Source of the DNA: Eledone cirrhosa
Taxonomy: Eukaryota
Length of the DNA stretch: 64,000 bases
Assembly: GCA_964016885.1 (NCBI GenBank)
Contig: OZ024757.1
Location: forward strand, 42,532,001 to 42,596,000
Direction: 5' to 3'
The notes under the pieces were generated by a model. It saw only the letters and a list, made by a program, of their open reading frames with translations, was not told where the DNA came from and did no database searches. Of the stretch, positions 19,648-62,415 are shown piece by piece (the stretch's first letter is position 1; each line of letters opens with the position of its first letter). Made by a program: the position numbers and the translations under genes.

Positions 19648-22600
19648 CTTTCTATTTGTCTTGCCCTCTTTATTTCTCTGTGTGTGTATATATCTGTATA
19701 TGTGTGTGTATGTATGTCTTCCTATTTCTGACTATATATATATGTATATGTCTCCCGTCTTCTCTCTTATCAACTTTATCACCTTCTCCTTCTCTTCCCC
19801 CAGTGATGCTGCCATCTCCAATCTTGACCCAATAGAACCAATTGAGTTTGACATCAATCACCTGTCTGGCCTCACCCCACACCTTTTACAGGCCGTCATG
19901 AAGTTGACCCTAATCAGTGATGAAAAACACTGTGCCCAGCTGACCCGGCAACACGAGTACAACTGCTCTAACAATGGAGCGCCTAAGAAGCCGGGGAAAC
20001 CTGCTGATGAACTGCACGAGGACCTAAACCCGGACGAAACTGCCGTGGACCCTGTTGGCACAGCTGTGGTTGCCGCTAACACCACCATCACCTCCGATGA
20101 TCAACCCCAGGCAGCTTACCAGGAACAAGTCTCCGACGAAAGCTGTCGACAGAGACCACCAACAGATCACAACGCAGATAAAAAACGACAGTGTCTTTTG
20201 CTGCACAGTGCTGCTAACTATGCTAGTTTGGGCACCCCGTTTCCACCGACACCACCACCACTACCGTCCGCCATGCGCAGTGCATCGGCATCTGTCTCGA
20301 TGGTGGACAGCCGAGAGGCCGTACAAGGGTCGCAGGTTGACATGTCTCAGGTATTTTCCAGCAGTCGGGAAAGTTCCTTAATAAACTCCAGTTTCTCCGA
20401 CACACCGTCTTGCGCTAACGAGATGACGGCGACACAAAAGTTCAGCAAAGAAGAAAGCTCTGAGGAGAACGTCTTTGAGGTGAATTCTTCGGAGGACAAC
20501 GCCTTGCAACACGAGCTGTTCAACTTCAGGATGGCGTCATTGAAGTTGGCCGCACTGAGGATGCTTTACAGAGTGATGCTCACCAATAAATATGCCGAGA
20601 TGCTGCTCGTGCCAAAGTCAGACCTGCGTGCTGAGAGCAGCAAAGCACTTCCCGACGGGACCGTGGTTAGACGAGACGACGACATGAAAGGGGAGCTACG
20701 TGCCATCATGAAGCAGATGGTGAAGCTGGCTACGGTTCCATCACCGTTCCGACGACTAGTGTCGTTGGTGGAACTTGAACGAGCCCAGAATGTTCTCTAC
20801 CAGGTCATGATACAGACTCAGTCTGACAACCAGGCTAACCTCTCACAGTATGAAGGTGAGTAGTTGTAACACACACATATACACCATACCACTCACACGC
20901 ATACCTCCATCCACACACATATGTGTATTCATTCGCACACAAATATATACTGATATACACAAATACACATACAGAGTAACACATATGTATATATATATGT
21001 GTAAAAGGTAAACAGAAATAACAACACAATCAGTACAGTATATGGAAGGAATATATTAGGTTAACGCTTGATATAGCAGGAAGAGAGTCTTAACGTTTCG
21101 GACGCTAGTCCTTCATCAGAAGAAAGAATGAGAAATAAGATAGATTGAAGGGAAGGGTGGGGTGGAATTGAATTGGAAAAAATGTCTTTAGATAAAAATA
21201 ACAGGTCCATTCATGTTGACATCATATATATATATATATATTCACTGTTTTTTTCTTGTGTCAATTTTCAGAACAACTGGATAAGCTGAGAGCATCAAAA
21301 GGTATGAAGGCAAGTGTTGACGTCAGCTGTAGCCCTCCCCTGGAGAGAAGTAATAGCACCAGTACTTCAGCATCTGTAGATGATAGTAATGTGAACAGTG
21401 GCACCAATGGGGTCGGGACTCGGCGTTCTAGTATGGACAGCAGTTCACTTCTACAGAGACACCAGCCTGTTGTACATAGGATCAGGACAATGTTAAGTGA
21501 ACCAAGGTTAGTTGACACTACACCGCATCACTATACTACACTGCACCACCACACTATACTACACTGCATTAAATGACACCACACTACATTACACCACTAT
21601 ACTACATGACACCACCATATTACACTACACTACATTACATGACACCACCATATTACACTACACCACCATCCTCAAGTTTGTTAATTCAAATGTTGATGAT
21701 TGTACTTTTCAAAGGATGTCTTGCTAATGTGGTTTGTTTTCTCTCTCTCTCTCGCAGTCTTTCAGCGGTCCCCATTAGCGTGTCACCACTACAACATCCG
21801 ACACTGTCTCCAGCAACTGTGACAGCAGTGAGTCCAACACCACAAACACCACCTTCACCTCTTTACGCTCCCCTCATAGAGATGGGTTTCAGTCTTAACC
21901 ACATTGTACAGGCAATGAGGGCCACAGGTTTGTAAAGCTACATCTTACTGTTTCTATTTCAACCTTCCATCCCTTCCATCCCTTCCCTACCTTCATACCA
22001 ACAATGGAATCTTCCATCTCTCCCCGACCTTGACACCAACAATAGAACCTTCCATCTCTCCCCTACCTTGACACCGATAGAACCTTCCATATCTCCCCTA
22101 CCTTGACACCAACAATAGAACCTTCCATCTCTCCCCTACCTTGACACCAACAATAGAACCTTCCATATCTCCCCTACCTTGACACCGATAGAACCTTCCA
22201 TATCTCCCCTACCTTGACCCCAACAATAGAACCTTCCATCTCTCCCCTACCTTGACACCAACAATAGAACCTTCCATATCTCCCCTACCTTGACACCAAC
22301 AATAGAACCTTCCATCTCTCCCCTACCTTGACACCAACGATAGAACCTTATATCTCTCCCCTACCTTGACACCAACAATAGAACCTTCCATATCTCCCCT
22401 ACCTTGACACCAACGATAGAACCTTCCATCTCTCCCCTACCTTGACACCAACGATAGAACCTTCTATATCTCCCCTACCTTGACACCAACGATAGAACCT
22501 TCCATATCTCCCCTACCTTGACACCAACAATAGAACCTTCCATCTCTCCCCTACCTTGACACCAACAATAGAACCTTCCATCTCTCCCCTACCTTGACAC

Positions 22601-25600
22601 CAACGATAGAACCTTCCATCTCTCCCCTACCTTGACACCAATGATAGAACCTTCCATATCTCCCCTACCTTGACACCAACAATAGAACCTTCCATATCTC
22701 CCCTACCTTGACACCAACGATAGAACCTTCCATATCTCCCCTACCTTGACACCAACGATAGAACCTTCCATATCTCCCCTACCTTGACACCAACGATAGA
22801 ACCTTCCATATCTCCCCTACCTTGACACCAACGATAGAACCTTCCATATCTCCCCTACCTTGACACCAATGATAGAACCTTCCATATCTCCCCTACCTTG
22901 ACACCAACGATAGAAACTTCCATCTCTCCCCTACCTTGACACCAACGATAGAACCTTCTATATCTCCCCTACCTTGACACCAACAATAGAACCTTCCATC
23001 TCTCCCCTACCTTGACACCGATAGAACCTTCTATATCTCCCCTACCTTGACACCAACAATAGAACCTTCCATCTCTCCCCTACCTTGACACCAACAATAG
23101 AACCTTCCATATCTCCCCTACCTTGACACCAACAATAGAACCTTCCATATCTCCCCTACCTTGACACCAACAATAGAACCTTCCATATCTCCCCTACCTT
23201 GACACCAACGATAGAACCTTCCATATCTCCCCTACCTTGACACCAACGATAGAACCTTCCATATCTCCCCTACCTTGACACCAACGATAGAACCTTCCAT
23301 ATCTCCCCTACCTTGACACCAATGATAGAACCTTCCATATCTCCCCTACCTTGACACCAACGATAGAAACTTCCATCTCTCCCCTACCTTGACACCAACG
23401 ATAGAACCTTCTATATCTCCCCTACCTTGACACCAACAATAGAACCTTCCATCTCTCCCCTACCTTGACACCGATAGAACCTTCTATATCTCCCCTACCT
23501 TGACACCAACAATAGAACCTTCCATCTCTCCCCTACCTTGACACCAACAATAGAACCTTCCATATCTCCCCTACCTTGACACCAACAATAGAACCTTCCA
23601 TATCTCCCCTACCTTGACACCAACAATAGAACCTTCCATATCTCCCCTACCTTGACACCAACAATAGAACCTTCCATATCTCCCCTACCTTGACACCAAC
23701 AATAGAACCTTCCATATCTCCCCTACCTTGACACCAACAATAGAACCTTCCATATCTCCCCTACCTAGACACCAACAATAGAACCTTCCATCTCTCCCCT
23801 ACCTTGACACCAACGATAGAACCTTCTATCTCTCCCCTACCTTGACACCAACGATAGAACCTTCCATATCTCCCCTACCTTGACACCAACAATAGAACCT
23901 TCCATCTCTCCCCTACCTTGACACCAACAATAGAACCTTCCATATCTCCCCTACCTAGACACCAACAATAGAACCTTCCATCTCTCCCCTACCTTGACAC
24001 CAACGATAGAACCTTCTATCTCTCCCCTACCTTGACACCAACAATAGAACCTTCCATCTCTCCCCTACCTTGACACCGATAGAACCTTCTATATCTCCCC
24101 TACCTTGACACCAACAATAGAACCTTCCATCTCTCCCCTACCTTGACACCAACGATAGAACCCCTCTTATAATAATGGCAATCTGTGTGCGTGAAGAATG
24201 GCTCAATATAAAGGACCCTATCATCCTAAAATGTCTGGCCTTCTGTCTGTCTGTCTCTATTGGAAATAATCAATTAATCAATAATTTATGTACCCCCTTC
24301 CCATCTCAATTACTTCCATCTAGGTGTGAACATCGAGGCATCTGCTCATGTAGTGAACACCCTGGCTACCTGGATGGTGGAACATCCCATCACAGAAACA
24401 TCCAACCAAAACGAACAATCCAGTGGTGGCGGTGCGGCCAGTTCTACATCCACCTGTGTACCTGTTGACCTGTCTTTTCCACCCACATCTCTCCCCTCCA
24501 GGGGAACACCACTCACAGACATGCTTAATGCCCATATATACAGAATTGCTTCCGACTGGTAAGTCATCTCTCTTCTTTCATTCTCATGAATAATTCTTCA
24601 ACACAACAAACTTTGTTTGATGATTGGATTAGTAACCTGACTGTATTTTTCTGGCTGTATTTCTAATGAAAACAAAAAGAAAGGATCCGATTGTGAGATC
24701 AGACCAAGGACACAATGTTTCTATTGGTCTTTCTATTGCTGATACTATCTGTTAGTCACAACTCCTGGCAGAAGAAAGGAGCTGATCATCAGATCAGACC
24801 AAAGAGACAATGTTTCTGTCAGTCACAACTCCTGGCAGAAGAAAGGAGCTGGTCATCAGATCAGACCAAAGAGACAATGTTTCTATTTATCTTTCCAGTA
24901 GCTCTAATTAAGTATCTGGTCTTTAAGGATCCGTCCAACCCTTACTAGCTGGGTAAACATACATTAAATAATGATGATATATGTTTGTATGTGCAGGGAA
25001 AACACCCTCCAGACGACAGAGGCACCAATGGCACATATTGAGACGTTGTCCGATCAATCGTCCGATGAACGTGAAGGAGAGATACACTTGGGACGCACAC
25101 GCAGGCGACGTCTGTGTCGTACACGGCACATGGATATACGTAATTACCTCACCAGACCTTGTACGTATGTCTCATGGATAGAGTTTCTTGATCACATACA
25201 CACAGGCTCTCTCTCTCTCTCTCTCTCTCTCAAATGCACATACACGCACGCTCTCTCTTACATACACTGGTTCTCTTACACACACAATCTCTCTCTCACA
25301 AACATACACACACATACACACTCTCATACATAAACACACATATACATTCTCACATACATTTACACTTTCACACACATGAACAGACACATACAAATGTAGA
25401 TATGTTGATGGTTGAGTGTGTATGTAGCTGTTTATCTCTCTCTCTCTCTGTCTTGTCCAGCTGGAACGAGAAGTCTCAGGGAGAGCCACCGGGAGAATCG
25501 ACCAGATCGTCAACATGAGATTGGTGAAGCCCGTCCCCTCTACGACTTGGAGTTTGATCTCTTTGATGATTTGTTGTATGAAGAAAATACTGATGCCTTC

Positions 25601-55820: not shown

Positions 55821-58150
55821 TGTAAAGTGGTCGTGTAGGTGTCATGACAAAAAGCATCCAGCCATAGAAATCTAGCCAGAAACAGTTGTATCTGAGCAAG
55901 ACATGGTCACCTGACCCAACATGCCTCTAATGGGACAAAACTGTGTAAGTGTAACCCATGCTAGCGTGGAAGATAGATGTTAAATGATGATGATGATGAT
56001 GAAGTACAAGTCAGCAGTTTATAATTCACTTTCTTCATACCCTGCATACTAAAATATTGGTGATAAACTAACATATACTCTAATATATATATATATATAT
56101 ATTTAGTTATGTAATAAACAACATAAGATAATTATTTCATTTACCAGTGGTTTCTTGAAGGCAGATATTTATATCTGTCTTCAGTCGTCAGAATGAATGT
56201 GTTTTTATTTAATAAAAACACCATGTTATTCATTCTGACGACTGAAGACAGATATAAATATCTGCATTCAAGAAACTGGTAAATGAAATAATTATCTTAT
56301 GTTGTTTATTACATAACTAATAAGCTCTGTAGCCTACATAGAGCACTCTCTTTTCCTGTACCTTTCCTACGGAAATACTTCATTTATATATATATATATA
56401 TATATTTTTGCTTTGCGAAGTTTTTGATATGAAATCGTGTGTCGAAGCAAATATTGTTATACTTGGGGAGGGTCATATTGTTGTAATAATATTGCCAGAA
56501 TTAATAACAGAACACACTCACTGTTTGGTTGGTTTTCGCTTCAGTATCTTTTATATCAGTTAATTTATTCAGTCCTCAATGATTACCATTGACTGACCAA
56601 CGGTCAAAAATACAGATATAATATAGACACAAACACATATATATAGTCTAACAAACTTCTTTCATTGCACATCTGCAACATCGTCAGTGGTGCTATTATG
56701 TTTCCTCCTGTTGTATTGTATGCCTACGCCATCTTTATTTAATCTGTTTATTTATTTATTTATTTTTGTCTTCTTCTCTGCGTTTGCGTGTGTGTATAGT
56801 GTTTGATGTGTGTTCGCGTTTGGGTGACTGTTTTGGTTATTGTATTCTATCTTAGTTTACTAGTGTGTGTTTATATATGTTTGTTGTTATTGTGCTTGTG
56901 TATATATTTATTTATTTATTTATATTTCTCTTAGGTCAGTATTGTTTGTTTGGGTGTTGTTGTTATTCCATTCATTTTTTCTGTTTAGCTTTGGCCTTCT
57001 AAGTTCTATTTCACTGACCTCTCTGATTTGCCTATCTGCTGAGTCATTTCTATGTTGTCTATGTTACCGTCATGTTGTTGTCTCGCGTGTTCGTATAGTA
57101 CTGACCCGTTTTTTCGTCCTTTTAGTTCCCCCCAGTGTTGGTCTATCCTTTCACCTATGCTACGAGCTGTCTTGCCTATGTATGTTGTTGTCATGTTTCT
57201 GCAAGTACCCTCTGTACATCTTATGCTATAGACTACGTTTCTAGTTTTACAGTTTATCCGGGGGTTTACTTTACATATAATACATTTCCTATTAGTACAG
57301 TGGGTTTTCTTAAAAGGGTATGTTTTGCTGATCAGGGATTTTATGGTGGTTCCTGGCTTTTCTACCACCTTAATCTTTAAGTGGGTCTTTCTCAGGGCCT
57401 TTCTACACTGGTTAGCTAATTTCCCTCCAGGGGTAGCATCCACGAACATGACACTCTGGTATCTCTGGTTGTTGTACCATGAGGTGGCTTTCCCAACAGT
57501 GAGTGTGTTCTGTTATTAATTCTGGCAATATTATTACAACAACATGACCCTCCCCAAGTATAACAATATATATATATATATAAAATGTCTATCCGTGTGT
57601 CTATTGTTGTTCCAGGTACCGAGGTATTGAAGAATCTAGTCCGGTGGTCACATGGTTCTGGAAAGTTCTCGAAACATTTGCCAATGAAGAACGGATTCAG
57701 TTTCTTCGTTTCGTGTCTGGACGGACACGGCTTCCTGCAAACTCTTCAGACATTTCACAGAGATTCCAAATCATGAACTCGGACAGGGTGAGTATTGCTG
57801 GGCACTCTGGTGGGGTTGGGGGGTACTGAGGCGCACTGGTGGGGTCAGGGTGCTGGTGAGTATTGCTGAGACTGGTATGTAGGAAGACATTCTCTCTCTC
57901 TTCAATAAAGTCTCTCTATATCTCTTGCTATCTTTCTCTATCGCTCCCTCTCTTTAATAAAGTTTCTCTCTCCCTGTCTCTCTATCTCTCTCTCTCGCTA
58001 TATATGTATATATATATATATATATATACACATATATATTACACACAGACACACTCTTTCTCTCTCTCTATATATGTATATATCTCACTTTATCTCTATA
58101 TCTGTCTCACCTTCATTCAGCTTTTCTCTTTCTCTCTCTCTCTCTCTTTA

Positions 58151-58186
<36 letters not shown>

Positions 58187-58391
58187 TTTTTCTCTTCCTC
58201 AGAGTCCCGACAGTCTTCCTACATCTCAGACTTGTTTCTTCCAACTACGGCTGCCAATGTATTCAAGTCAGGAGGTGTTAGCCGAGAAACTGCGTTACGC
58301 CATTAATAACTGTCGTTCTATTGATATGGACAACTATATGCTCACCCGCAACACAGATAATGGACAGGGCTCCGACGAAGATCTCTGCTAG
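1829..58391 (+). CDS. HERC1: HERC1-like giant HECT E3 ubiquitin ligase, 5'-partial, 58 exons in window (listed individually)
   Basis: Spliced peptides match recalled HERC1 motifs in order: [23 protein letters not shown] ([11 protein letters not shown]), UBA-like (LIEMGFS), WD40 repeats, RCC1-like repeats ([12 protein letters not shown]), HECT ending [18 protein letters not shown] boundaries are phase-consistent. Confidence 0.97.
2792..2917 (+). CDS. HERC1: HERC1 exon
   Basis: AG/GT; [24 protein letters not shown]. Confidence 0.95.
3143..3325 (+). CDS. HERC1: HERC1 exon
   Basis: AG/GT; [13 protein letters not shown]. Confidence 0.93.
3974..4132 (+). CDS. HERC1: HERC1 exon
   Basis: AG/GT; [13 protein letters not shown]. 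Confidence 0.9.
4597..4726 (+). CDS. HERC1: HERC1 exon
   Basis: AG/GT; [16 protein letters not shown] (not in ORF track). Confidence 0.85.
5164..5358 (+). CDS. HERC1: HERC1 exon
   Basis: AG/GT; [14 protein letters not shown]. Confidence 0.88.
5646..5837 (+). CDS. HERC1: HERC1 exon
   Basis: AG/GT; [18 protein letters not shown]. Confidence 0.92.
6020..6780. repeat. 32-bp minisatellite, ~24 copies
   Basis: Unit ATAACCACACCCCTCTCACCCATCACCACTCT. Confidence 0.95.
6801..6980 (+). CDS. HERC1: HERC1 exon
   Basis: AG/GT; [11 protein letters not shown], phase consistent. Confidence 0.85.
7074..7185 (+). CDS. HERC1: HERC1 exon
   Basis: AG/GT; [15 protein letters not shown]. Confidence 0.9.
7919..8130 (+). 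CDS. HERC1: HERC1 exon
   Basis: AG/GT; [19 protein letters not shown]. Confidence 0.85.
8627..8755 (+). CDS. HERC1: HERC1 exon
   Basis: AG/GT; [16 protein letters not shown]. Confidence 0.88.
8835..9000. mobile_element. hAT-like MITE
   Basis: Imperfect TIRs CAGGGCCGGGTTTA / TAAATCTAGCACTG. Confidence 0.6.
9007..9215 (+). mobile_element. tRNA-derived SINE (family B)
   Basis: B box GGGTTCAATTCC then CTTGAGCAAAACACTTTATTTCAC core; related copies ~12955, 15015(-), 27395(-), 29170(-), 40975, 46335. Confidence 0.75.
9389..9445 (+). CDS. HERC1: HERC1 small exon
   Basis: AG/GT, phase consistent; [18 protein letters not shown]; low conservation. Confidence 0.65.
9869..10066. mobile_element. piggyBac-like MITE
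   Basis: TTAA on both flanks; TIRs CCCTTTACCATTTA / TAAATGCTAAAGGG. Confidence 0.7.
10160..10296 (+). CDS. HERC1: HERC1 exon
   Basis: AG/GT, phase consistent; [16 protein letters not shown]. Confidence 0.7.
10777..10849 (+). CDS. HERC1: HERC1 small exon
   Basis: AG/GT; needed to restore phase; [13 protein letters not shown]. Confidence 0.65.
10958..11917 (+). CDS. HERC1: HERC1 large exon
   Basis: AG/GT; [18 protein letters not shown]. Confidence 0.93.
12748..12891 (+). CDS. HERC1: HERC1 exon
   Basis: AG/GT; [13 protein letters not shown]. Confidence 0.92.
13040..13320. repeat. Degenerate ~100-120-bp tandem/dispersed repeat
   Basis: ATGATAGGACTGGGACCCCTATCATTAAA...GGAGGCCAGCTAAACCTAC; also 14200-14700 and ~46455-46650. 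Confidence 0.75.
13354..13460 (+). CDS. HERC1: HERC1 exon
   Basis: AG/GT; [17 protein letters not shown]. Confidence 0.9.
13720..14034 (+). CDS. HERC1: HERC1 exon (start of SPRY)
   Basis: AG/GT; [19 protein letters not shown]. Confidence 0.93.
14200..14700. repeat. Second array of the same ~100-120-bp repeat
   Basis: 4-5 degenerate units. Confidence 0.75.
14721..14960 (+). CDS. HERC1: HERC1 exon (SPRY)
   Basis: AG/GT; [21 protein letters not shown]. Confidence 0.96.
15241..15713 (+). mobile_element. RTE-like LINE 3' fragment in (TA)n
   Basis: [17 protein letters not shown]...RGRPRKTW, (GAT)n tail. Confidence 0.9.
15824..15907 (+). CDS. HERC1: HERC1 exon (SPRY)
   Basis: AG/GT; [19 protein letters not shown]. 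Confidence 0.95.
16117..16280 (+). mobile_element. tRNA-derived SINE (family A, Meta-domain-like)
   Basis: GAGTTCAAATCC B box; GCCTTTCATCCTTACGGGGTCGATAAAATAAAGTAC core. Confidence 0.8.
16347..16557 (+). CDS. HERC1: HERC1 exon
   Basis: AG/GT; [22 protein letters not shown]. Confidence 0.93.
16905..17115. repeat. 34-bp minisatellite, ~6 copies
   Basis: (CAC)n-CATCTCAGTTATTACATGA unit. Confidence 0.9.
17184..17278 (+). CDS. HERC1: HERC1 exon
   Basis: AG/GT; ends ETLCYE. Confidence 0.85.
17669..19039 (+). mobile_element. 5'-truncated RTE-like LINE with open RT C-terminal frame and embedded PHD finger
   Basis: [17 protein letters not shown]4HC3 finger, [16 protein letters not shown]; stop at 18686; (GAT)n tail; (TA)n on both sides. 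Confidence 0.93.
19325..19488 (+). CDS. HERC1: HERC1 exon
   Basis: AG/GT; [21 protein letters not shown]. Confidence 0.93.
19804..20855 (+). CDS. HERC1: HERC1 large exon
   Basis: AG/GT; [12 protein letters not shown]...[10 protein letters not shown]. Confidence 0.92.
21001..21222 (-). mobile_element. Penelope-like pseudo-LTR with minimal hammerhead (21088-21123)
   Basis: Minus strand TCTT-CTGATGA-AGGACTAGCGTCC-GAAACGTT-AAGA; reverse copy of 1-138. Confidence 0.75.
21272..21506 (+). CDS. HERC1: HERC1 exon
   Basis: AG/GT; [10 protein letters not shown], phase consistent. Confidence 0.8.
21758..21927 (+). CDS. HERC1: HERC1 exon (UBA-like)
   Basis: AG/GT; [19 protein letters not shown]. Confidence 0.9.
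21990..24165. repeat. 38-bp minisatellite, ~57 copies
   Basis: Unit CCTTCCATCTCTCCCCTACCTTGACACCAACAATAGAA with 35-bp variants. Confidence 0.97.
24324..24558 (+). CDS. HERC1: HERC1 exon (UBA-like)
   Basis: AG/GT; [12 protein letters not shown]. Confidence 0.9.
24997..25160 (+). CDS. HERC1: HERC1 exon
   Basis: AG/GT, phase consistent; [10 protein letters not shown]. Confidence 0.78.
25461..25624 (+). CDS. HERC1: HERC1 exon
   Basis: AG/GT, phase consistent; [11 protein letters not shown]. Confidence 0.78.
26106..27097 (+). mobile_element. Penelope-like element 3' remnant
   Basis: [15 protein letters not shown]...[15 protein letters not shown] resembles the PLE GIY-YIG C-terminus; degenerate hammerhead 26987-27087; (TA)n flanks. 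Confidence 0.75.
27686..27794 (+). CDS. HERC1: HERC1 exon (Cys/His motif)
   Basis: AG/GT; [23 protein letters not shown]. Confidence 0.9.
27870..28820 (-). mobile_element. Degenerate RTE-like LINE fragment with PHD finger
   Basis: [10 protein letters not shown]...WPCSICRKG...[12 protein letters not shown]...CSRC; frameshifted; CAT repeats at 3' end, (TA)n at 5' end. Confidence 0.9.
30329..30595. mobile_element. piggyBac-like MITE (AT-rich family; related pieces ~2600-2725, 4155-4450, 5390-5620)
   Basis: TTAA-CCCCTT...AAGGGG-TTAA. Confidence 0.55.
31278..31585. mobile_element. Head-to-head pair of family A SINE fragments
   Basis: Minus copy ~31278-31390, plus copy ~31425-31585. Confidence 0.75.
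32370..33160. repeat. Compound (CT)n/(CA)n-ACAACAG satellite with 312-bp local duplication
   Basis: GTTGATGGTTGTGATGG...TCTTAACAGC block repeated 312 bp later. Confidence 0.9.
33306..33575 (+). CDS. HERC1: HERC1 exon
   Basis: AG/GT; [20 protein letters not shown]. Confidence 0.92.
33727..33915 (+). mobile_element. Full-length family A tRNA-derived SINE
   Basis: A box TGGCAGTATCGG, B box GAGTTCAAATCC, Meta-like core, (ATT)n tail. Confidence 0.85.
34040..34340 (+). mobile_element. Old degenerate RTE-like fragment
   Basis: GATAGCTTC..TATCTAGG...ATGCTGCATGGTAGTGAG...CTGGAGAGAAATGAAGC similar to the other RTE copies. Confidence 0.7.
35211..35402 (+). CDS. HERC1: HERC1 exon
   Basis: AG/GT; [11 protein letters not shown]. 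Confidence 0.88.
36064..36238 (+). CDS. HERC1: HERC1 exon
   Basis: AG/GT; [21 protein letters not shown]. Confidence 0.92.
36518..36746 (+). CDS. HERC1: HERC1 exon
   Basis: AG/GT; [21 protein letters not shown]. Confidence 0.92.
37892..38087 (+). CDS. HERC1: HERC1 exon (3' end uncertain)
   Basis: AG/GT; ELMQAATG...[12 protein letters not shown]; alternative donor after 38039 possible. Confidence 0.82.
38448..38745 (+). CDS. HERC1: HERC1 exon (start of WD40)
   Basis: AG/GT; [12 protein letters not shown]...LEGHQDR. Confidence 0.92.
38751..38935. repeat. 56-bp tandem repeat, ~3.3 copies
   Basis: CCCACTTTATATTAGTAATTTTATTACTGTTCCTCTATCTGTTGCCCACTTATTAG. Confidence 0.9.
39005..39207 (+). CDS. 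HERC1: HERC1 exon (WD40)
   Basis: AG/GT; [10 protein letters not shown]. Confidence 0.93.
39702..39902 (+). CDS. HERC1: HERC1 exon (WD40)
   Basis: AG/GT; HYITAMTWP. Confidence 0.9.
40430..40554 (+). CDS. HERC1: HERC1 exon (WD40)
   Basis: AG/GT; [17 protein letters not shown]. Confidence 0.92.
41207..41409 (+). CDS. HERC1: HERC1 exon (WD40)
   Basis: AG/GT; [12 protein letters not shown]. Confidence 0.9.
41770..42482 (+). CDS. HERC1: HERC1 exon (WD40)
   Basis: AG/GT; [16 protein letters not shown]...[10 protein letters not shown]. Confidence 0.95.
42704..42903. mobile_element. hAT (Charlie-like) MITE
   Basis: TIRs CAGTGTTTTTCAAC / GTTGAGAAACGCTG. Confidence 0.7.
42976..43121 (+). CDS. HERC1: HERC1 exon
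   Basis: AG/GT; [13 protein letters not shown]. Confidence 0.9.
43155..43400. repeat. ~48-bp tandem repeat, ~5 copies
   Basis: TTACCATATTTCTAATGAAAGACACTGTCTATGTCATTAACCCTTTCA. Confidence 0.88.
43564..43755 (+). CDS. HERC1: HERC1 exon (RLD2 start)
   Basis: AG/GT; [19 protein letters not shown]. Confidence 0.94.
44208..44346 (+). CDS. HERC1: HERC1 exon (RCC1-like)
   Basis: AG/GT; [15 protein letters not shown]. Confidence 0.96.
44759..44940 (+). CDS. HERC1: HERC1 exon (RCC1-like)
   Basis: AG/GT; [17 protein letters not shown]. Confidence 0.97.
45423..45578 (+). CDS. HERC1: HERC1 exon (RCC1-like)
   Basis: AG/GT; [11 protein letters not shown]. Confidence 0.96.
45856..46081 (+). CDS. HERC1: HERC1 exon (RCC1-like)
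   Basis: AG/GT; [11 protein letters not shown]. Confidence 0.96.
46913..47157 (+). CDS. HERC1: HERC1 exon (RCC1-like)
   Basis: AG/GT; [12 protein letters not shown]. Confidence 0.95.
47471..47701 (+). CDS. HERC1: HERC1 exon
   Basis: AG/GT; [15 protein letters not shown]. Confidence 0.95.
47863..49870 (+). mobile_element. 5'-truncated, degenerate Tx1/L1-clade LINE ORF2
   Basis: [50 protein letters not shown]-terminal [15 protein letters not shown]; stops and frameshifts; AATAAA end. Confidence 0.92.
50069..50238 (+). CDS. HERC1: HERC1 exon
   Basis: AG/GT; [16 protein letters not shown]. Confidence 0.94.
50425..50812. repeat. 40-bp minisatellite, ~9.5 copies
   Basis: TCCTATCTCCCACTAGATGTCACCACCACTATCCTAACAC. 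Confidence 0.96.
50846..51011 (+). CDS. HERC1: HERC1 exon (HECT)
   Basis: AG/GT; [21 protein letters not shown]. Confidence 0.97.
51186..51262 (+). CDS. HERC1: HERC1 exon (HECT)
   Basis: AG/GT; [15 protein letters not shown]. Confidence 0.94.
51454..51625 (+). CDS. HERC1: HERC1 exon (HECT)
   Basis: AG/GT; [20 protein letters not shown]. Confidence 0.96.
52125..52620. repeat. (TA)n-GATGATGA composite minisatellite
   Basis: ~25-29-bp units, ~18 copies. Confidence 0.9.
52729..52778 (-). ncRNA. Minimal hammerhead ribozyme motif with 1-nt core insertion
   Basis: ACAGG-CTG(C)ATGA-GTTGG...CCAAC-GAAA-CTTAAG-TA-CCTGT. Confidence 0.65.
52930..53010 (+). CDS. HERC1: HERC1 exon (HECT)
   Basis: AG/GT; [13 protein letters not shown]. 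Confidence 0.92.
53446..53598 (+). CDS. HERC1: HERC1 exon (HECT)
   Basis: AG/GT; [12 protein letters not shown]...YRLHEMDKQ. Confidence 0.95.
53843..54507 (-). mobile_element. Retrozyme-like non-autonomous element, 629-bp unit plus ~36-bp terminal redundancy
   Basis: ATATAAATGAGAGGTATAGAGATTGTTTTAG(C/T)GAGA at both ends; contains a complete hammerhead. Confidence 0.75.
54101..54181 (-). ncRNA. Type I hammerhead ribozyme (complete)
   Basis: GCUCUG-CUGAUGA-AUGAAA..UUUCAU-GAAA-UAGUC-UUUUAA-GACUA-UA-CAGAGC; all three stems pair. Confidence 0.9.
54594..54772 (-). mobile_element. Family A tRNA-derived SINE
   Basis: Reverse complement of 33727-33915. Confidence 0.85.
55283..55416 (+). CDS. HERC1: HERC1 exon (HECT)
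   Basis: AG/GT; [17 protein letters not shown]. Confidence 0.96.
56103..56320. repeat. Long inverted repeat made of two hammerhead-bearing pLTR-like arms
   Basis: ~95-bp arms; plus-strand TCATT-CTGACGA...GAAA-CTGG-TA-AATGA at ~56230-56286. Confidence 0.8.
56640..57494 (-). mobile_element. Penelope-like element fragment (GIY-YIG endonuclease)
   Basis: [10 protein letters not shown]...KVVEKPG...CTNRKCIIC...NVVYSIRC...[16 protein letters not shown]; CTGACGA..GAAA motif downstream (~56650-56690). Confidence 0.85.
57616..57787 (+). CDS. HERC1: HERC1 exon (HECT)
   Basis: AG/GT; WFWKVLETF...[10 protein letters not shown]. Confidence 0.96.
58203..58391 (+). CDS. HERC1: HERC1 terminal exon with catalytic Cys
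   Basis: AG acceptor; [17 protein letters not shown] stop. Confidence 0.97.
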
Positions 58392-58583
58392 CTTCTAGAA
58401 ATGTTCTATTGTAAATTTTTATTTATTTTTAATTTTTATTTTTTATTATTATTATTTTTTTTTTTTTTTTGCCAGCTATGAGACTTTGGTGACTGAAGTC
58501 ATTAAGCCTCTATCTCCTCTCCCTGTGTCTCAATGGTGCTTAGTGTCATCTCTAGATGCTATCATTGTACAATCTGCAAATTA

Positions 58584-58589
58584 AATAAA
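58584..58589 (+). terminator. Candidate HERC1 polyadenylation signal
   Basis: AATAAA ~190 nt after the stop codon, followed by a T-rich tract. Confidence 0.5.
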
Positions 58590-58637: not shown

Positions 58638-59381
58638 TGGCCGGAGTATCGCTAAAAAGCTTTCTCCGATAATGTATTTATTTATTTACTCTTGGTGCAA
58701 CAGATTTGAAATTCCCGGTATAAGGTTAGACTTTCTTTGTTTATTTTTTTATATATGAATATTGATTGTTTCTTATATCTCATTCTGTTATTTTGCCCGA
58801 GAAAATATCTGTGCGTGTCATCAAACGTTGTACACACATAGATATTTTTTCAAGTTCCAATTGAGTTCTAGCACGTGGCCTGAATTCCTTTTAGAGTTCA
58901 TTGTCATGCGCATGTATTGTTTTTTTGGCAGTAATTTATTTCCTCATTTTTGAATCAGTTTGAGTATTTCTTTAGAACTGCTGGACTAGCAACCTAACAG
59001 ATACGTCAGGCACTGATTATGATTATCGCTAAATACTGATGTTGGTTAGATTATCAATATTAGTATTATTGGGGCACCCACTGATGAATTATAGGAGCCC
59101 ACTTGAATATATTTCTATTGATGGTATACAAGCTCCTACATAAATTGGTATAATTTCACCCAAATTGTAGGAATCCTATAATGAAACGAGACGTCCGTCT
59201 GGGAAGAGATATATTCGATATGTCTCATATGAAATAATACAGCCAATTTTCCACGCAATACATTTAGTTAGCACCCCGAACGCTTAATTAGGAATATACT
59301 CACTTATTTCCTAATGTTTGTTGAGTGAGTTGGATTTTGGCCGGAGTATCGCTAAAAAGCTTTCTCCGATAATGTATTTAT
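58638..59381 (+). mobile_element. Retrozyme-like non-autonomous element, 700-bp unit plus 44-bp terminal redundancy
   Basis: TGGCCGGAGTATCGCTAAAAAGCTTTCTCCGATAATGTATTTAT at 58638 and 59338; contains a complete hammerhead. Confidence 0.78.
59077..59203 (+). ncRNA. Type I hammerhead ribozyme (complete, GUC site)
   Basis: CCCA-CUGAUGA-AUUAUAGGA...UCCUAUAAU-GAAA-CG-AGACGUC-CG-UC-UGGG. Confidence 0.9.
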
Positions 59382-60752
59382 CTATATATATATATTTCTA
59401 TCTTATATATATATTTATATATATATCTATATATATATATAAAATAATTGTTTCTATTTTAGGCACAAGGCCAGCAATTACCCAGTACATTACTGGTACT
59501 TTATTTTATCGACCCCGTAAGGATTTTATATATATAAAATAATAAATCGATAACAGAAAAATTGATACAGAAGCGTCATCAAAGTTTTTTTCGAAAGATG
59601 ACTATTTCATCAATTTTTTTTTTTTTTTTTTGTCAGATTTGCTAGAAAGAGCAGTCAAACTTCTCCCCCATGCCATTTCAAAACATGAAGGGTAGATCTA
59701 GTCTTAGATGCCCACTGGATGGTCACTATTGGAATTTCTTTTGGGTCGTTTTCCTCAGCCAGGAGGCTGACCTGGAAGCTTAATAAATATTTTGTTCTCC
59801 ACGCCTCGTATTTTTGTGGCATCGTATATACACACTGAGGTTTTTACAGGGAGAAAAAAGGTTTTGGTATTTTCACTGTAATGGAAGTCGAAAATTAGGA
59901 TTATACCAAAACTAGTTGGCCGCTTTCATGATTCGGAGGGAATTTGTCTGCTATTTCTAGTAGATGATGCGAATATGTAATAAAAAGATATTGTTGTTTA
60001 TTTAACCCTGGACGATGAAAACAATGTATAATCAAAGTGAATCCATCCGTGACCATTGTGAATTTAGTGGCATCAAAGATTACATGCGTCCTTCATTGTT
60101 TAAGATGACGGGAGAAAAATATAGGGAGACAGGTGGTACTATTAAATTAGATATGGCCTGGGCCAATACTGGCCGAAACCTATCAAAGTTAAGACAATTT
60201 GCTGCTATTTCTAACACATGGGTCGGAATTTCTTTTTAAGGGAGACAACTCTTGGGGGCGGAGGTTTCTAGAAAATTTGATAAAATTTTCAGGTGTCCGA
60301 TAACCTGTATCAATTTTTCACACATATTTGAATATATAAAAATAAGCCCTTCGAAGCACTCGGTTCTGTTACGAGGTCCGCCAACGTGTGGGTTGTATTC
60401 TGGACTTAATAAAGTTTGTACATATGCTGCAACACTGTCTTCGATTTTACATAATCTCTCGCTCATATATATATATATTATATATTTAGGTTTGTTGGTT
60501 CACCACTGGATAGAACTGGTCATTCCGTATGGTCAACCTCGATGTAACATTATGGAGAGGACTCAACGTAATGCAACTCACCCGTCTTCGTTTGTGTAGT
60601 TGGTGGTGCGAGTACGGAGTTAATTATTATAAGATAACAGCTTCTACCCCGCGGCCAACCGGGGTAGAAGCTGCTAAATGTTCGGTCGCCCTCATGTCTC
60701 TGATTTTCAGCCCCATGGGTTTTGTCTATTATATTCCTTTGTTATATTTCGA

Positions 60753-60810: not shown

Positions 60811-61008
60811 AATAAACCTTTTAAGGAATTACACCAGTCCAGCCTCCTGTTATTTTATAATATATACATATATATATATATATATATTGTGTTTGCGAGT
60901 CAACTCGCATTGAAATACGTTCATATAAAACATTGGGCCTAAGCTAACCTTTACGAGTGACTTTAATTAGTGAGACACCGGTTACACAGTTCCGGTGTTC
61001 AGTGAAAC

Positions 61009-62415
61009 ATGGAGATGTCTCAATCCAGACAAGATTCTTTCCCGGCTCAAATTAAACTGAATAGTGAAGTTGTAGAATATCTGTTAAGGGGATCTTTTAA
61101 TACTTTGAAGTCTGCTGAAGATGATAGAAACAATTGTGAGAAAGAAATCAGTCGAATTCTTCGTGTCCTTCCATTGCCGCCTCTTTTTACTGTGGTACGT
61201 CTGAATACCCTGAAAGACGACCCCGAATCTCTTCTGGTTCTCCTCAAGAAACAATTAATAGAAAACCACAGACACAGAGCTGTACAACTAGCTGAACCTT
61301 TTTTCCACCCTCTCATGCCCGATGTTGTTATAATACCAAATATTGGACCAGTTGAAGAGATCAAGAGACAAAGAGGGCAAGTAGTTGTTGATCACTCGTG
61401 TGGTATGTCTGTTTTAAGAGGATCGGAAATATTTGTTCAAGGAATCATTGGTGCTCCTTTAGACATGGGTCCCGGCGATAATGTTTCATTATTTGTCGAC
61501 ATGGAAGGAACTTGTCTCCGCGGACAAACACAACCTTTGAAAGGGGAGAAGATATTTCTCGGGAACGGTTTATCAATGGTGAGCCGCAGTCAAATCTTCC
61601 GCGATTCATCGTCAGATCGTGTTTTATCAGGAGTTGGTATATCCGTAACGAATGGCCTTTACTCGGCTCCGAGACTGGACAATTTAGACCCTCATCTCGT
61701 ATTTCCTCAAAATCTTCCCTCGGCTGTTTGTAGTTACGTGTTAAACCCTCAACCTAACGAAGTTATCTTAGACATGTGTGCTGCTCCAGGTGGTAAAACC
61801 ACACACATTGCCACACTGATGAGAAACGAAGGCCGTTTAGTAGCAATAGATCGCACTAAACCCAAAGCAGAGCGGCTGAGCTTTTTAGTATCTAAATGGT
61901 GTTTAACCTGTGTTGAGGTTTATGCATTTGATTCCACAAAATTACTCCAAGACTCTGCAGAAGTAACTAAAGGCCCTCCCTACCCACCAGAGTCATTCGA
62001 TCGTATTTTACTCGATGCTCCGTGCAGTGCTCTCGGCCAGAGACCCTCCTGTCGTAACATGATGTCTTTATCAACATTGAAATCATTCCCAGTTTATCAA
62101 CGGAAATTAATTCGTCAAGCCATCGGACTTCTGAAGAGAGGCGGTAGTTTAGTCTACAGCACTTGTACCATAACTTTGGCTGAGAATGAAGACCAAGTGG
62201 GGTGGATTTTAACCAATTTTCCTAACCTCATCCTTGCAGCTCAGGTGCCTCATGTCGGAGATATTGGCTTAGAAGGTTCTTCCTTGACACCCGAACAACT
62301 TAAATTACTCCAACGATTCAAACCTGACATTTCAAATAATATCAAAGATTCTTTCAACAAAGACACAATCGGCTTCTTTATTGCTAAATTCATTAAAGTG
62401 GAAAATGTCATCTAA
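61009..62415 (+). CDS. NSUN6: tRNA (cytosine-C5) methyltransferase NSUN6, single-exon CDS, 468 aa
   Basis: PUA region (CGMSVLRGSEIFVQGI), PQNLPS, SAM-binding DMCAAPGGKTTH, motif IV FDRILLDAPCS, motif VI VYSTCT, C-terminal DTIGFFIAKF. Confidence 0.95.
   Translation: MEMSQSRQDSFPAQIKLNSEVVEYLLRGSFNTLKSAEDDRNNCEKEISRILRVLPLPPLFTVVRLNTLKDDPESLLVLLKKQLIENHRHRAVQLAEPFFHPLMPDVVIIPNIGPVEEIKRQRGQVVVDHSCGMSVLRGSEIFVQGIIGAPLDMGPGDNVSLFVDMEGTCLRGQTQPLKGEKIFLGNGLSMVSRSQIFRDSSSDRVLSGVGISVTNGLYSAPRLDNLDPHLVFPQNLPSAVCSYVLNPQPNEVILDMCAAPGGKTTHIATLMRNEGRLVAIDRTKPKAERLSFLVSKWCLTCVEVYAFDSTKLLQDSAEVTKGPPYPPESFDRILLDAPCSALGQRPSCRNMMSLSTLKSFPVYQRKLIRQAIGLLKRGGSLVYSTCTITLAENEDQVGWILTNFPNLILAAQVPHVGDIGLEGSSLTPEQLKLLQRFKPDISNNIKDSFNKDTIGFFIAKFIKVENVI

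What the first reader, a model, noticed from the sequence alone, without database searches (positions are those of the whole stretch)
58638..59381. 700-bp terminally redundant retrozyme-like element with a complete hammerhead just past the HERC1 3' end
Seen: a perfect 44-bp direct repeat at 58638 and 59338, exactly 700 bp apart, brackets a non-coding unit that ends in (TA)n. Inside is a canonical type I hammerhead (59077-59203). Stem I is CCCA/UGGG, the core CUGAUGA and GAAA are intact, stem II is 9 bp (AUUAUAGGA/UCCUAUAAU) enclosing further hairpins (GGAGC/GCUCC, CCUACA/UGUAGG), stem III is ACG/CGU, and the site is GUC (cut after 59199). Known: retrozymes are non-autonomous hammerhead retroelements that replicate via circular RNA and are linked to Penelope-like elements. 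Inference: one unit plus a short overlap is what reverse transcription slightly more than once round a 700-nt circle would leave. The unit is larger than the few-hundred-nt animal retrozymes I know of and may be an undescribed cephalopod family.
Basis: partly seen in the sequence, partly recalled or inferred. Interest (0 to 1): 0.9.

Follow-up and report, generated by a model that had tools for sequence, protein, structure and literature searches.

The report
Octopus ribozyme retroelement riding Penelope enzymes
This is one of more than a thousand copies of a 700-letter non-coding jumping sequence in an octopus-like genome; it carries a predicted self-cutting RNA and was likely pasted into TA repeats by a borrowed Penelope-type enzyme copying an RNA circle, a known kind of element whose copies show its mechanism unusually clearly.

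Summary
In detail: an exact 44-bp repeat 700 bp apart and a type I hammerhead at 59077-59203. It is one copy of a young dispersed family (999 exact hits to a 23-mer of its 3' end). Copies are not freely permuted. The 3' end is fixed 182 nt past the cleavage site and runs into (TA)n; the 5' end is truncated at varying points; 15 of 70 sampled copies exceed one unit. So the 44-bp overlap is simply where this copy stopped. Units within an array join seamlessly (42 of 43) and share subfamily variants (24 discordant against 204 expected), as repeated laps round one template would give. A 767-bp sister family supplies four compensatory hammerhead pairs and keeps a palindromic helix III, predicted to cleave as a dimer. 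Best reading: a non-LTR retrozyme, likely copied from a circular RNA by a TA-targeting Penelope-like element; a Hydra-clade family is the weakly supported candidate helper. Cleavage, circles and expression are untested. The kind and the size are known; I found no cephalopod report, and the branched helix II is unusual.

The parts
58638..59381 (+). Whole insertion, 1.06 units of family RZ-A (my label)
   Evidence: 5' junction spanned by a contig of single-copy depth in public runs (possibly the same sample)
58638..58681 (+). 44-bp 5' overlap: point where this copy was truncated
   Evidence: other copies truncate elsewhere
58682..59381 (+). 700-nt monomer, 34% GC, no ORF, strongly folded
   Evidence: circular fold z=-5.1 against 30 shuffles
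59077..59203 (+). Type I hammerhead; predicted cut after 59199
59097..59173 (+). Branched insertion in helix II: hairpins 59102-59132 and 59134-59172
   Evidence: one compensatory pair in the second hairpin, four one-sided changes in the first
59186..59199 (+). Helix III strand, palindromic apart from one bulged A; predicted dimer interface
   Evidence: duplex -14.9 against hairpin -0.7 kcal/mol; sister family has two 8-nt palindromes, 20 and 19 of 43 sites
59070..59080 (+). Small hairpin predicted to sequester the 5' strand of stem I
   Evidence: minimum-energy folds
59342..59368 (+). Hairpin just before the fixed 3' end; inferred reverse-transcription start signal
   Evidence: arms G-C in 121, G-U in 33, A-U in 26 sites, the three commonest forms
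59382..59443 (+). Degenerate (TA)n, inferred target remnant
   Evidence: 67 of 70 copies have a TA run at the 3' end

Best explanation
It is a 5'-truncated copy of a dispersed, non-coding hammerhead retroelement (a non-LTR retrozyme) that was likely inserted by a Penelope-like element's enzymes copying a probably circular 700-nt RNA. Steps: (1) loci with two or more units are transcribed (inferred); (2) two hammerheads pair through palindromic helix III and cut at GUC, releasing monomers (structure shown by covariation, cleavage untested); (3) monomers are ligated into circles in which the lone hammerhead is folded inactive (inferred from known retrozymes and folding); (4) a GIY-YIG endonuclease nicks (TA)n and reverse transcription starts at a fixed internal site 182 nt past the cut site (fixed end and TA target shown, enzyme inferred); (5) the enzyme goes round and drops off at varying points, leaving from under 0.1 to about 3.5 units (shown); this copy is 1.06 laps. 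The best helper candidate is a Hydra-clade family with intact 713-codon frames (weak).
For: Multicopy: 818 exact hits to a hammerhead 26-mer and 999 to a tail 23-mer, reversed controls 0; about 1400 tails after correcting for mismatches (74 of 104 exact). Fixed 3' end: 68 of 73 match clusters in 70 tail-selected loci end at 59381; sister family 39 of 44. TA run at the 3' end in 67 of 70 and at the 5' end in 55 of 70. 15 of 70 longer than one unit. Unit-to-unit joins the same length in 42 of 43; length across the cut site unchanged in 118 of 120. Within arrays 24 of 563 common-site pairs discordant against 204 expected, scattered rather than position-specific, across many haplotypes; 2.6% within against 4.4% between arrays. 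Four compensatory pairs between families. Fixed internal start, AT-rich target, partial tandems and inverted 5' pieces (L128) are Penelope-like hallmarks (PMC11167929, PMC8557442). At least three Penelope-like families with long intact frames and TA-abutting ends are present. 5' ends of RZ-A pile up at or just past the cut site: 12 of 69 passes against 57 of 1946 elsewhere, p=7e-7.
Against: No RNA data, so cleavage, circles and expression are unshown. The pile-up window was drawn after seeing the data, is not significant against a TA-run control window (5 of 53, p=0.16), and the test set in advance in the sister family failed (2 of 29 against 37 of 814, p=0.38). Ends at the cut site would in any case point to linear cleaved templates as well as circles. 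The helper link is short and post hoc: tail similarity p=0.0015 for the sister family but 0.07 for RZ-A, and a Neptune family scores p=0.03 for RZ-A; no wider homology. Covariation comes from one split between two families. In a lizard Penelope element, unprocessed RNA was the main template in vitro (PMC11167929); 8 of 9 predicted frog retrozymes did not cleave in vitro (10.64898/2026.07.22.740005).
Confidence: 0.68

Rival explanations
1. Same element and helper, but the template is a linear multimer read from tandem loci, sometimes cut at one hammerhead; no circle is needed.
For: Several copies start within 0-5 nt of the cut site, some one lap out at about 880-890 nt; unprocessed RNA served as template for a lizard element in vitro (PMC11167929); monomer hammerhead predicted weak.
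Against: Copying from a fixed start with 5' truncation can only shorten arrays, yet many haplotypes each have internally uniform arrays, which needs repeated passage through a single unit.
Confidence: 0.17
2. Linear self-cleaved monomers are the template, and the enzyme jumps from the 5' end back to a 3' end to make longer copies.
For: Explains both uniform arrays and ends near the cut site.
Against: 118 of 120 crossings of the cut site have unchanged length; end-to-end jumps usually leave small gains or losses (recalled from R2 work); most copies pass the site (57 of 69).
Confidence: 0.07
3. The unit is the terminal repeat of an autonomous Penelope-like element not yet found, and the copies are its short 3' pieces.
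For: Identical end anatomy; many frog retrozymes match such repeats (10.64898/2026.07.22.740005). The genome could not be searched exhaustively.
Against: 43 joins run from unit straight into unit; in the loci inspected no copy continued upstream into a shared coding frame; no match to four Penelope-like families beyond the short tail.
Confidence: 0.05
4. Small LTR element, local duplication, or arrays built by DNA-level amplification or repeated insertion next to older copies.
For: Direct repeat at both ends of this copy; Penelope elements often insert beside each other (PMC6765202).
Against: Overlap length differs in nearly every copy; dispersed on many chromosomes; joins lack TA filler and units match in subfamily.
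Confidence: 0.03

Closest known systems
Metazoan non-LTR retrozymes (PMC7229834: coral, mussel, axolotl; 10.64898/2026.07.22.740005: vertebrates)
   Same: Non-coding, low GC, head-to-tail units each with one type I hammerhead, strongly folded, co-occurring with Penelope-like elements.
   Different: 700 and 767 nt against 170-400 nt in invertebrates; mostly dispersed sub-unit copies; fixed 3' end at (TA)n, which the sections I read do not describe; hammerhead with 4-bp helix I and a branched helix II, predicted blocked in the monomer.
Hammerheads of Penelope-like elements (PMC4209133)
   Same: Short helix I (4-5 bp), long helix II (7-8 bp there, 9 here), palindromic helix III, predicted dimer cleavage.
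   Different: About 77 nt of branched structure in loop II; pair 10.1-11.1 is A-U in RZ-A (G-C in the sister family); no coding frame.
Poseidon element of green anole (PMC11167929)
   Same: Fixed internal start in a stem-loop downstream of the hammerhead, AT-rich target, partial tandems.
   Different: Autonomous; start lies in the coding frame; two starts giving a 30-40 bp tail, which RZ-A copies lacked in my samples.
Hydra-clade Penelope-like elements (PMC8557442)
   Same: (TA)n targeting; the genome's family has RWR, DKT, CxCx5C, CxxC and CxH motifs and about 45 nt of tail resemblance to the sister family.
   Different: Protein-coding, 3.2-kb unit; its own hammerhead looks degenerate; partnership unproven.
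Non-autonomous Chlamys elements such as MRC1 (10.1101/2021.04.23.441226)
   Same: Head-to-tail, microsatellite-targeted passengers resembling their helper at the 3' end.
   Different: Green algae; no hammerhead reported.

Membership tests
Non-LTR retrozyme | Type I hammerhead in each repeat unit | tested here: met
Non-LTR retrozyme | Head-to-tail repeats with at least two hammerheads at some loci | tested here: met
   L005, L016, L085, L086; not at this locus
Non-LTR retrozyme | Non-coding, GC under 45%, multicopy | tested here: met
Non-LTR retrozyme | Self-cleavage of the transcript | not testable with these tools
   indirect pile-up of 5' ends positive in RZ-A, not replicated in the sister family
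Non-LTR retrozyme | Expressed as circular RNA | not testable with these tools
   no RNA holder listed
Canonical animal type I hammerhead | 6-bp helix I, 4-bp helix II with loop-loop contacts; Rfam match | tested here: not met
   4-bp helix I, 9-bp branched helix II; no Rfam hit
Penelope-type hammerhead | Short helix I, long helix II, palindromic helix III | tested here: met
   against PMC4209133
Passenger of Penelope-like elements | Fixed 3' end, 5' truncation, partial tandems, (TA)n target | tested here: met
Passenger of Penelope-like elements | 3' end shared with an autonomous family | tested here: inconclusive
   p=0.0015 sister family, p=0.07 RZ-A, post hoc; best score among TA-adjacent end families for the sister family only
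LTR retrozyme or small LTR element | Fixed-length terminal repeats, type III hammerhead in each | tested here: not met
   overlap varies, type I, one hammerhead
Autonomous Penelope-like element | RT plus GIY-YIG frame | tested here: not met

The most novel reading that the evidence does not exclude
The copies record rolling-circle, target-primed reverse transcription directly: a 700-nt ribozyme-made RNA circle hijacks a Hydra-clade Penelope enzyme by mimicking its start signal, is copied from one fixed point into TA repeats for up to several laps, and uses a dimer-only hammerhead with a new branched helix II as the switch between cutting multimers and keeping circles closed.
Probability: 0.3. 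Interest if true: 0.75.

Novelty: new variant of a known kind. Interest (0 to 1): 0.5.

Why it matters
That animal retrozyme circles are reverse transcribed by Penelope-like enzymes has been proposed since 2014-2020 (PMC4209133, PMC7229834) and is still described as unresolved (10.64898/2026.07.22.740005). This family gives a mapped start site, a target sequence, length statistics, two covarying families and intact candidate helpers in one genome, so the model can be tested in vitro with an existing assay (PMC11167929). It also shows a hammerhead form that Rfam misses, so such elements are probably undercounted. Nothing suggests a role in the neighbouring gene beyond its position about 50 nt past a likely poly(A) signal.

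Tried and rejected
Rfam scan: no hammerhead hit. RNA runs: no RNA holder listed; three contig runs were laid, which show presence only. Helper search: Neptune-like family with 1217-codon frames, a second Neptune-like family and a 784-codon RT plus GIY-YIG family show no unit homology; a 3.9-kb pair of hits (L081) was two separate short copies. Advance test of the cut-site pile-up in the sister family failed; 6 of its 39 ends lie 8-20 nt past the site, but that window is post hoc and other windows are as full. Core bases are not clearly better kept than their neighbours among copies (1.25% against 1.39%). Earlier scan notes: none. Literature searches for a cephalopod report, for retrozyme with target-primed and truncated and for a branched helix II found none; repeat databases and subscription papers were not searchable, and supplements of the papers read were not opened and may list cephalopod elements.

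Full report
Observation. The 44-bp repeat is exact, at 58638 and 59338. The 700-nt unit has no frame over 64 codons, is 34% GC and folds far better than shuffles, linear (z -5.1) or circular (z -5.1). Rfam does not detect it. The gene upstream has WD40, RCC1 and HECT hits; the name HERC1 rests on recalled domain order. Its stop is at 58389 and a likely poly(A) signal lies at 58580-58589. NSUN6 downstream places the host among octopods.

The family. The genome holds 818 exact matches to a hammerhead 26-mer and 999 to a tail 23-mer, with 0 for reversed controls; 74 of 104 tails in loci not chosen by that word match exactly, giving about 1400 tails. Best copies are 94-98% identical. I sampled 70 loci by the tail word: all those listed up to C1:162.8 Mb plus one array picked out of order. 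Of 73 match clusters, 68 end exactly at the position of 59381; 70 had an intact 3' end and were counted, 3 were dropped. Of the 70, 67 run into a TA repeat, 55 have TA at the 5' side, the median length is 436 and 15 exceed one unit. The longest array seen is about 3.5 units (L085). So the 3' end is fixed, 182 nt past the cut site, and the 5' end is a truncation. This copy's overlap is one such stop. It differs from the column-wise commonest letter at 6 of 665 sites, against a median of 1.6%, so it is fairly young.

Arrays come from one template. Among 135 arrays (six loci left out as overlaps; one of them, L043, was on re-check not a duplicate, and L082 held an array not otherwise counted), 41 have more than one unit. 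Joins have the same length in 42 of 43, with no TA filler. At 35 common polymorphic sites, units in one array disagree 24 times in 563, against 204 expected for random units. The disagreements are scattered, and many haplotypes each have uniform arrays. Within-array divergence is 2.6% against 4.4% between, lower in 30 of 39 pairs. This rules out arrays built by separate adjacent insertions. Copying from a fixed start with 5' loss can only shorten a linear multimer, so some step must regrow arrays from one unit. A circle does this most simply; jumps between linear monomers would too, but 118 of 120 crossings of the cut site are unchanged in length. This is inference, not detection of a circle.

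The ribozyme. A sister family (period 757-774, about 75% identical; 546 exact tail hits) has the same fixed end (39 of 44 clusters) and TA target (38 of 39). In an alignment of 8 and 13 copies, 98% of cells pair, with compensatory changes in stem I, twice in stem II and in the inner hairpin; these reflect one split between two families. Helix III is a palindrome in both: a self-duplex of -14.9 against a hairpin of -0.7 kcal/mol here, and two alternative 8-nt palindromes in the sister. This matches hammerheads of Penelope-like elements, thought to cut as dimers (PMC4209133, passages). In the monomer the active fold is about 6 kcal/mol uphill, with a small hairpin holding the 5' strand of stem I.

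Does it cut in the germline? In RZ-A, 12 of 69 passes end within 3 nt before to 12 nt after the cut site, against 57 of 1946 elsewhere (p 7e-7). Seven copies start within that purine-rich stretch, away from the TA run (4 of 69 in the sample, p 0.03). Against this: the window was drawn after seeing data, a TA-run control window is not significantly lower (p 0.16), and the test fixed in advance for the sister family failed (2 of 29, p 0.38; note, result). I treat it as suggestive only.

The helper. Fixed internal start, AT-rich target, partial tandems and inverted 5' pieces are Penelope-like hallmarks (PMC11167929, main text; PMC8557442, passages and sections 6 and 11). The genome has several such families with long open frames: Neptune-like 1217 codons, a 784-codon RT plus GIY-YIG family and a 713-codon family with Hydra-clade motifs (atlas neighbours carry PF26215 in 25-38% of members; 20% identical to the 784-codon protein). 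The last shares about 45 nt around its own 3' end with the sister family (p 0.0015 against shuffles, one of 8 comparisons, noticed by eye first) and less with RZ-A (p 0.07), where a Neptune family scores p 0.03. The helper is therefore unresolved, with Hydra the best lead.

Comparison. It works like, and meets the testable features of, a non-LTR retrozyme (PMC7229834, passages and sections 14 and 17), which include a mussel family. That paper and PMC4209133 already propose circles copied by Penelope enzymes. A 2026 preprint (10.64898/2026.07.22.740005, parts 1-3 of 5; supplements not seen) links animal retrozymes to Penelope repeats and reports units up to 972 bp, so size is not new; it sampled no mollusc. 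PMC6765202 and 10.1101/2021.04.23.441226 were seen as passages. Searches found no cephalopod retrozyme or branched helix II, but repeat databases were not searchable.

Verdict. Real, correctly classed in outline, with the end structure reinterpreted. A new variant of a known kind, useful because its copies map the start site and target and make the circle-plus-helper model testable. Interest 0.5.

Noticed in passing
window 56420-57569, - strand: Truncated Neptune-like Penelope element in an intron of the HECT gene, with a 78-bp inverted piece and a tail; belongs to a very young family with intact 1217-codon frames.
   Followed up: partly
window 56103-56320: Long palindrome containing a second, compact hammerhead-like motif on the - strand (GUA site) ending in TA; a recurring family.
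   Followed up: no
window 59454-59530 and 60138-60231: Pieces of extremely abundant repeats; the first resembles an octopus SINE by recall only.
   Followed up: no
window 61006-62413, + strand: NSUN6 encoded in one uninterrupted 469-codon frame.
   Followed up: partly
L074, L087, L102-L125, L260-L299: Sister retrozyme family with a 767-bp unit and at least 546 tails.
   Followed up: yes
L254-L259: Hydra-clade Penelope-like family with intact 713-codon frames whose hammerhead looks degenerate (CAGAAGA core), although the clade is reported always to carry one.
   Followed up: partly
L236, L241, L257, L259, L204: Several further hammerhead-like motifs in other TA-targeting repeats; dozens of recurring TA-adjacent end families were seen in under 1 Mb.
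   Followed up: no
L197:5299-6664: The 784-codon Neptune-type family has a separate 455-codon upstream frame within its 4.7-kb unit.
   Followed up: no
window 21972-24162: 38-bp minisatellite, 58 copies, 94% matches.
   Followed up: no
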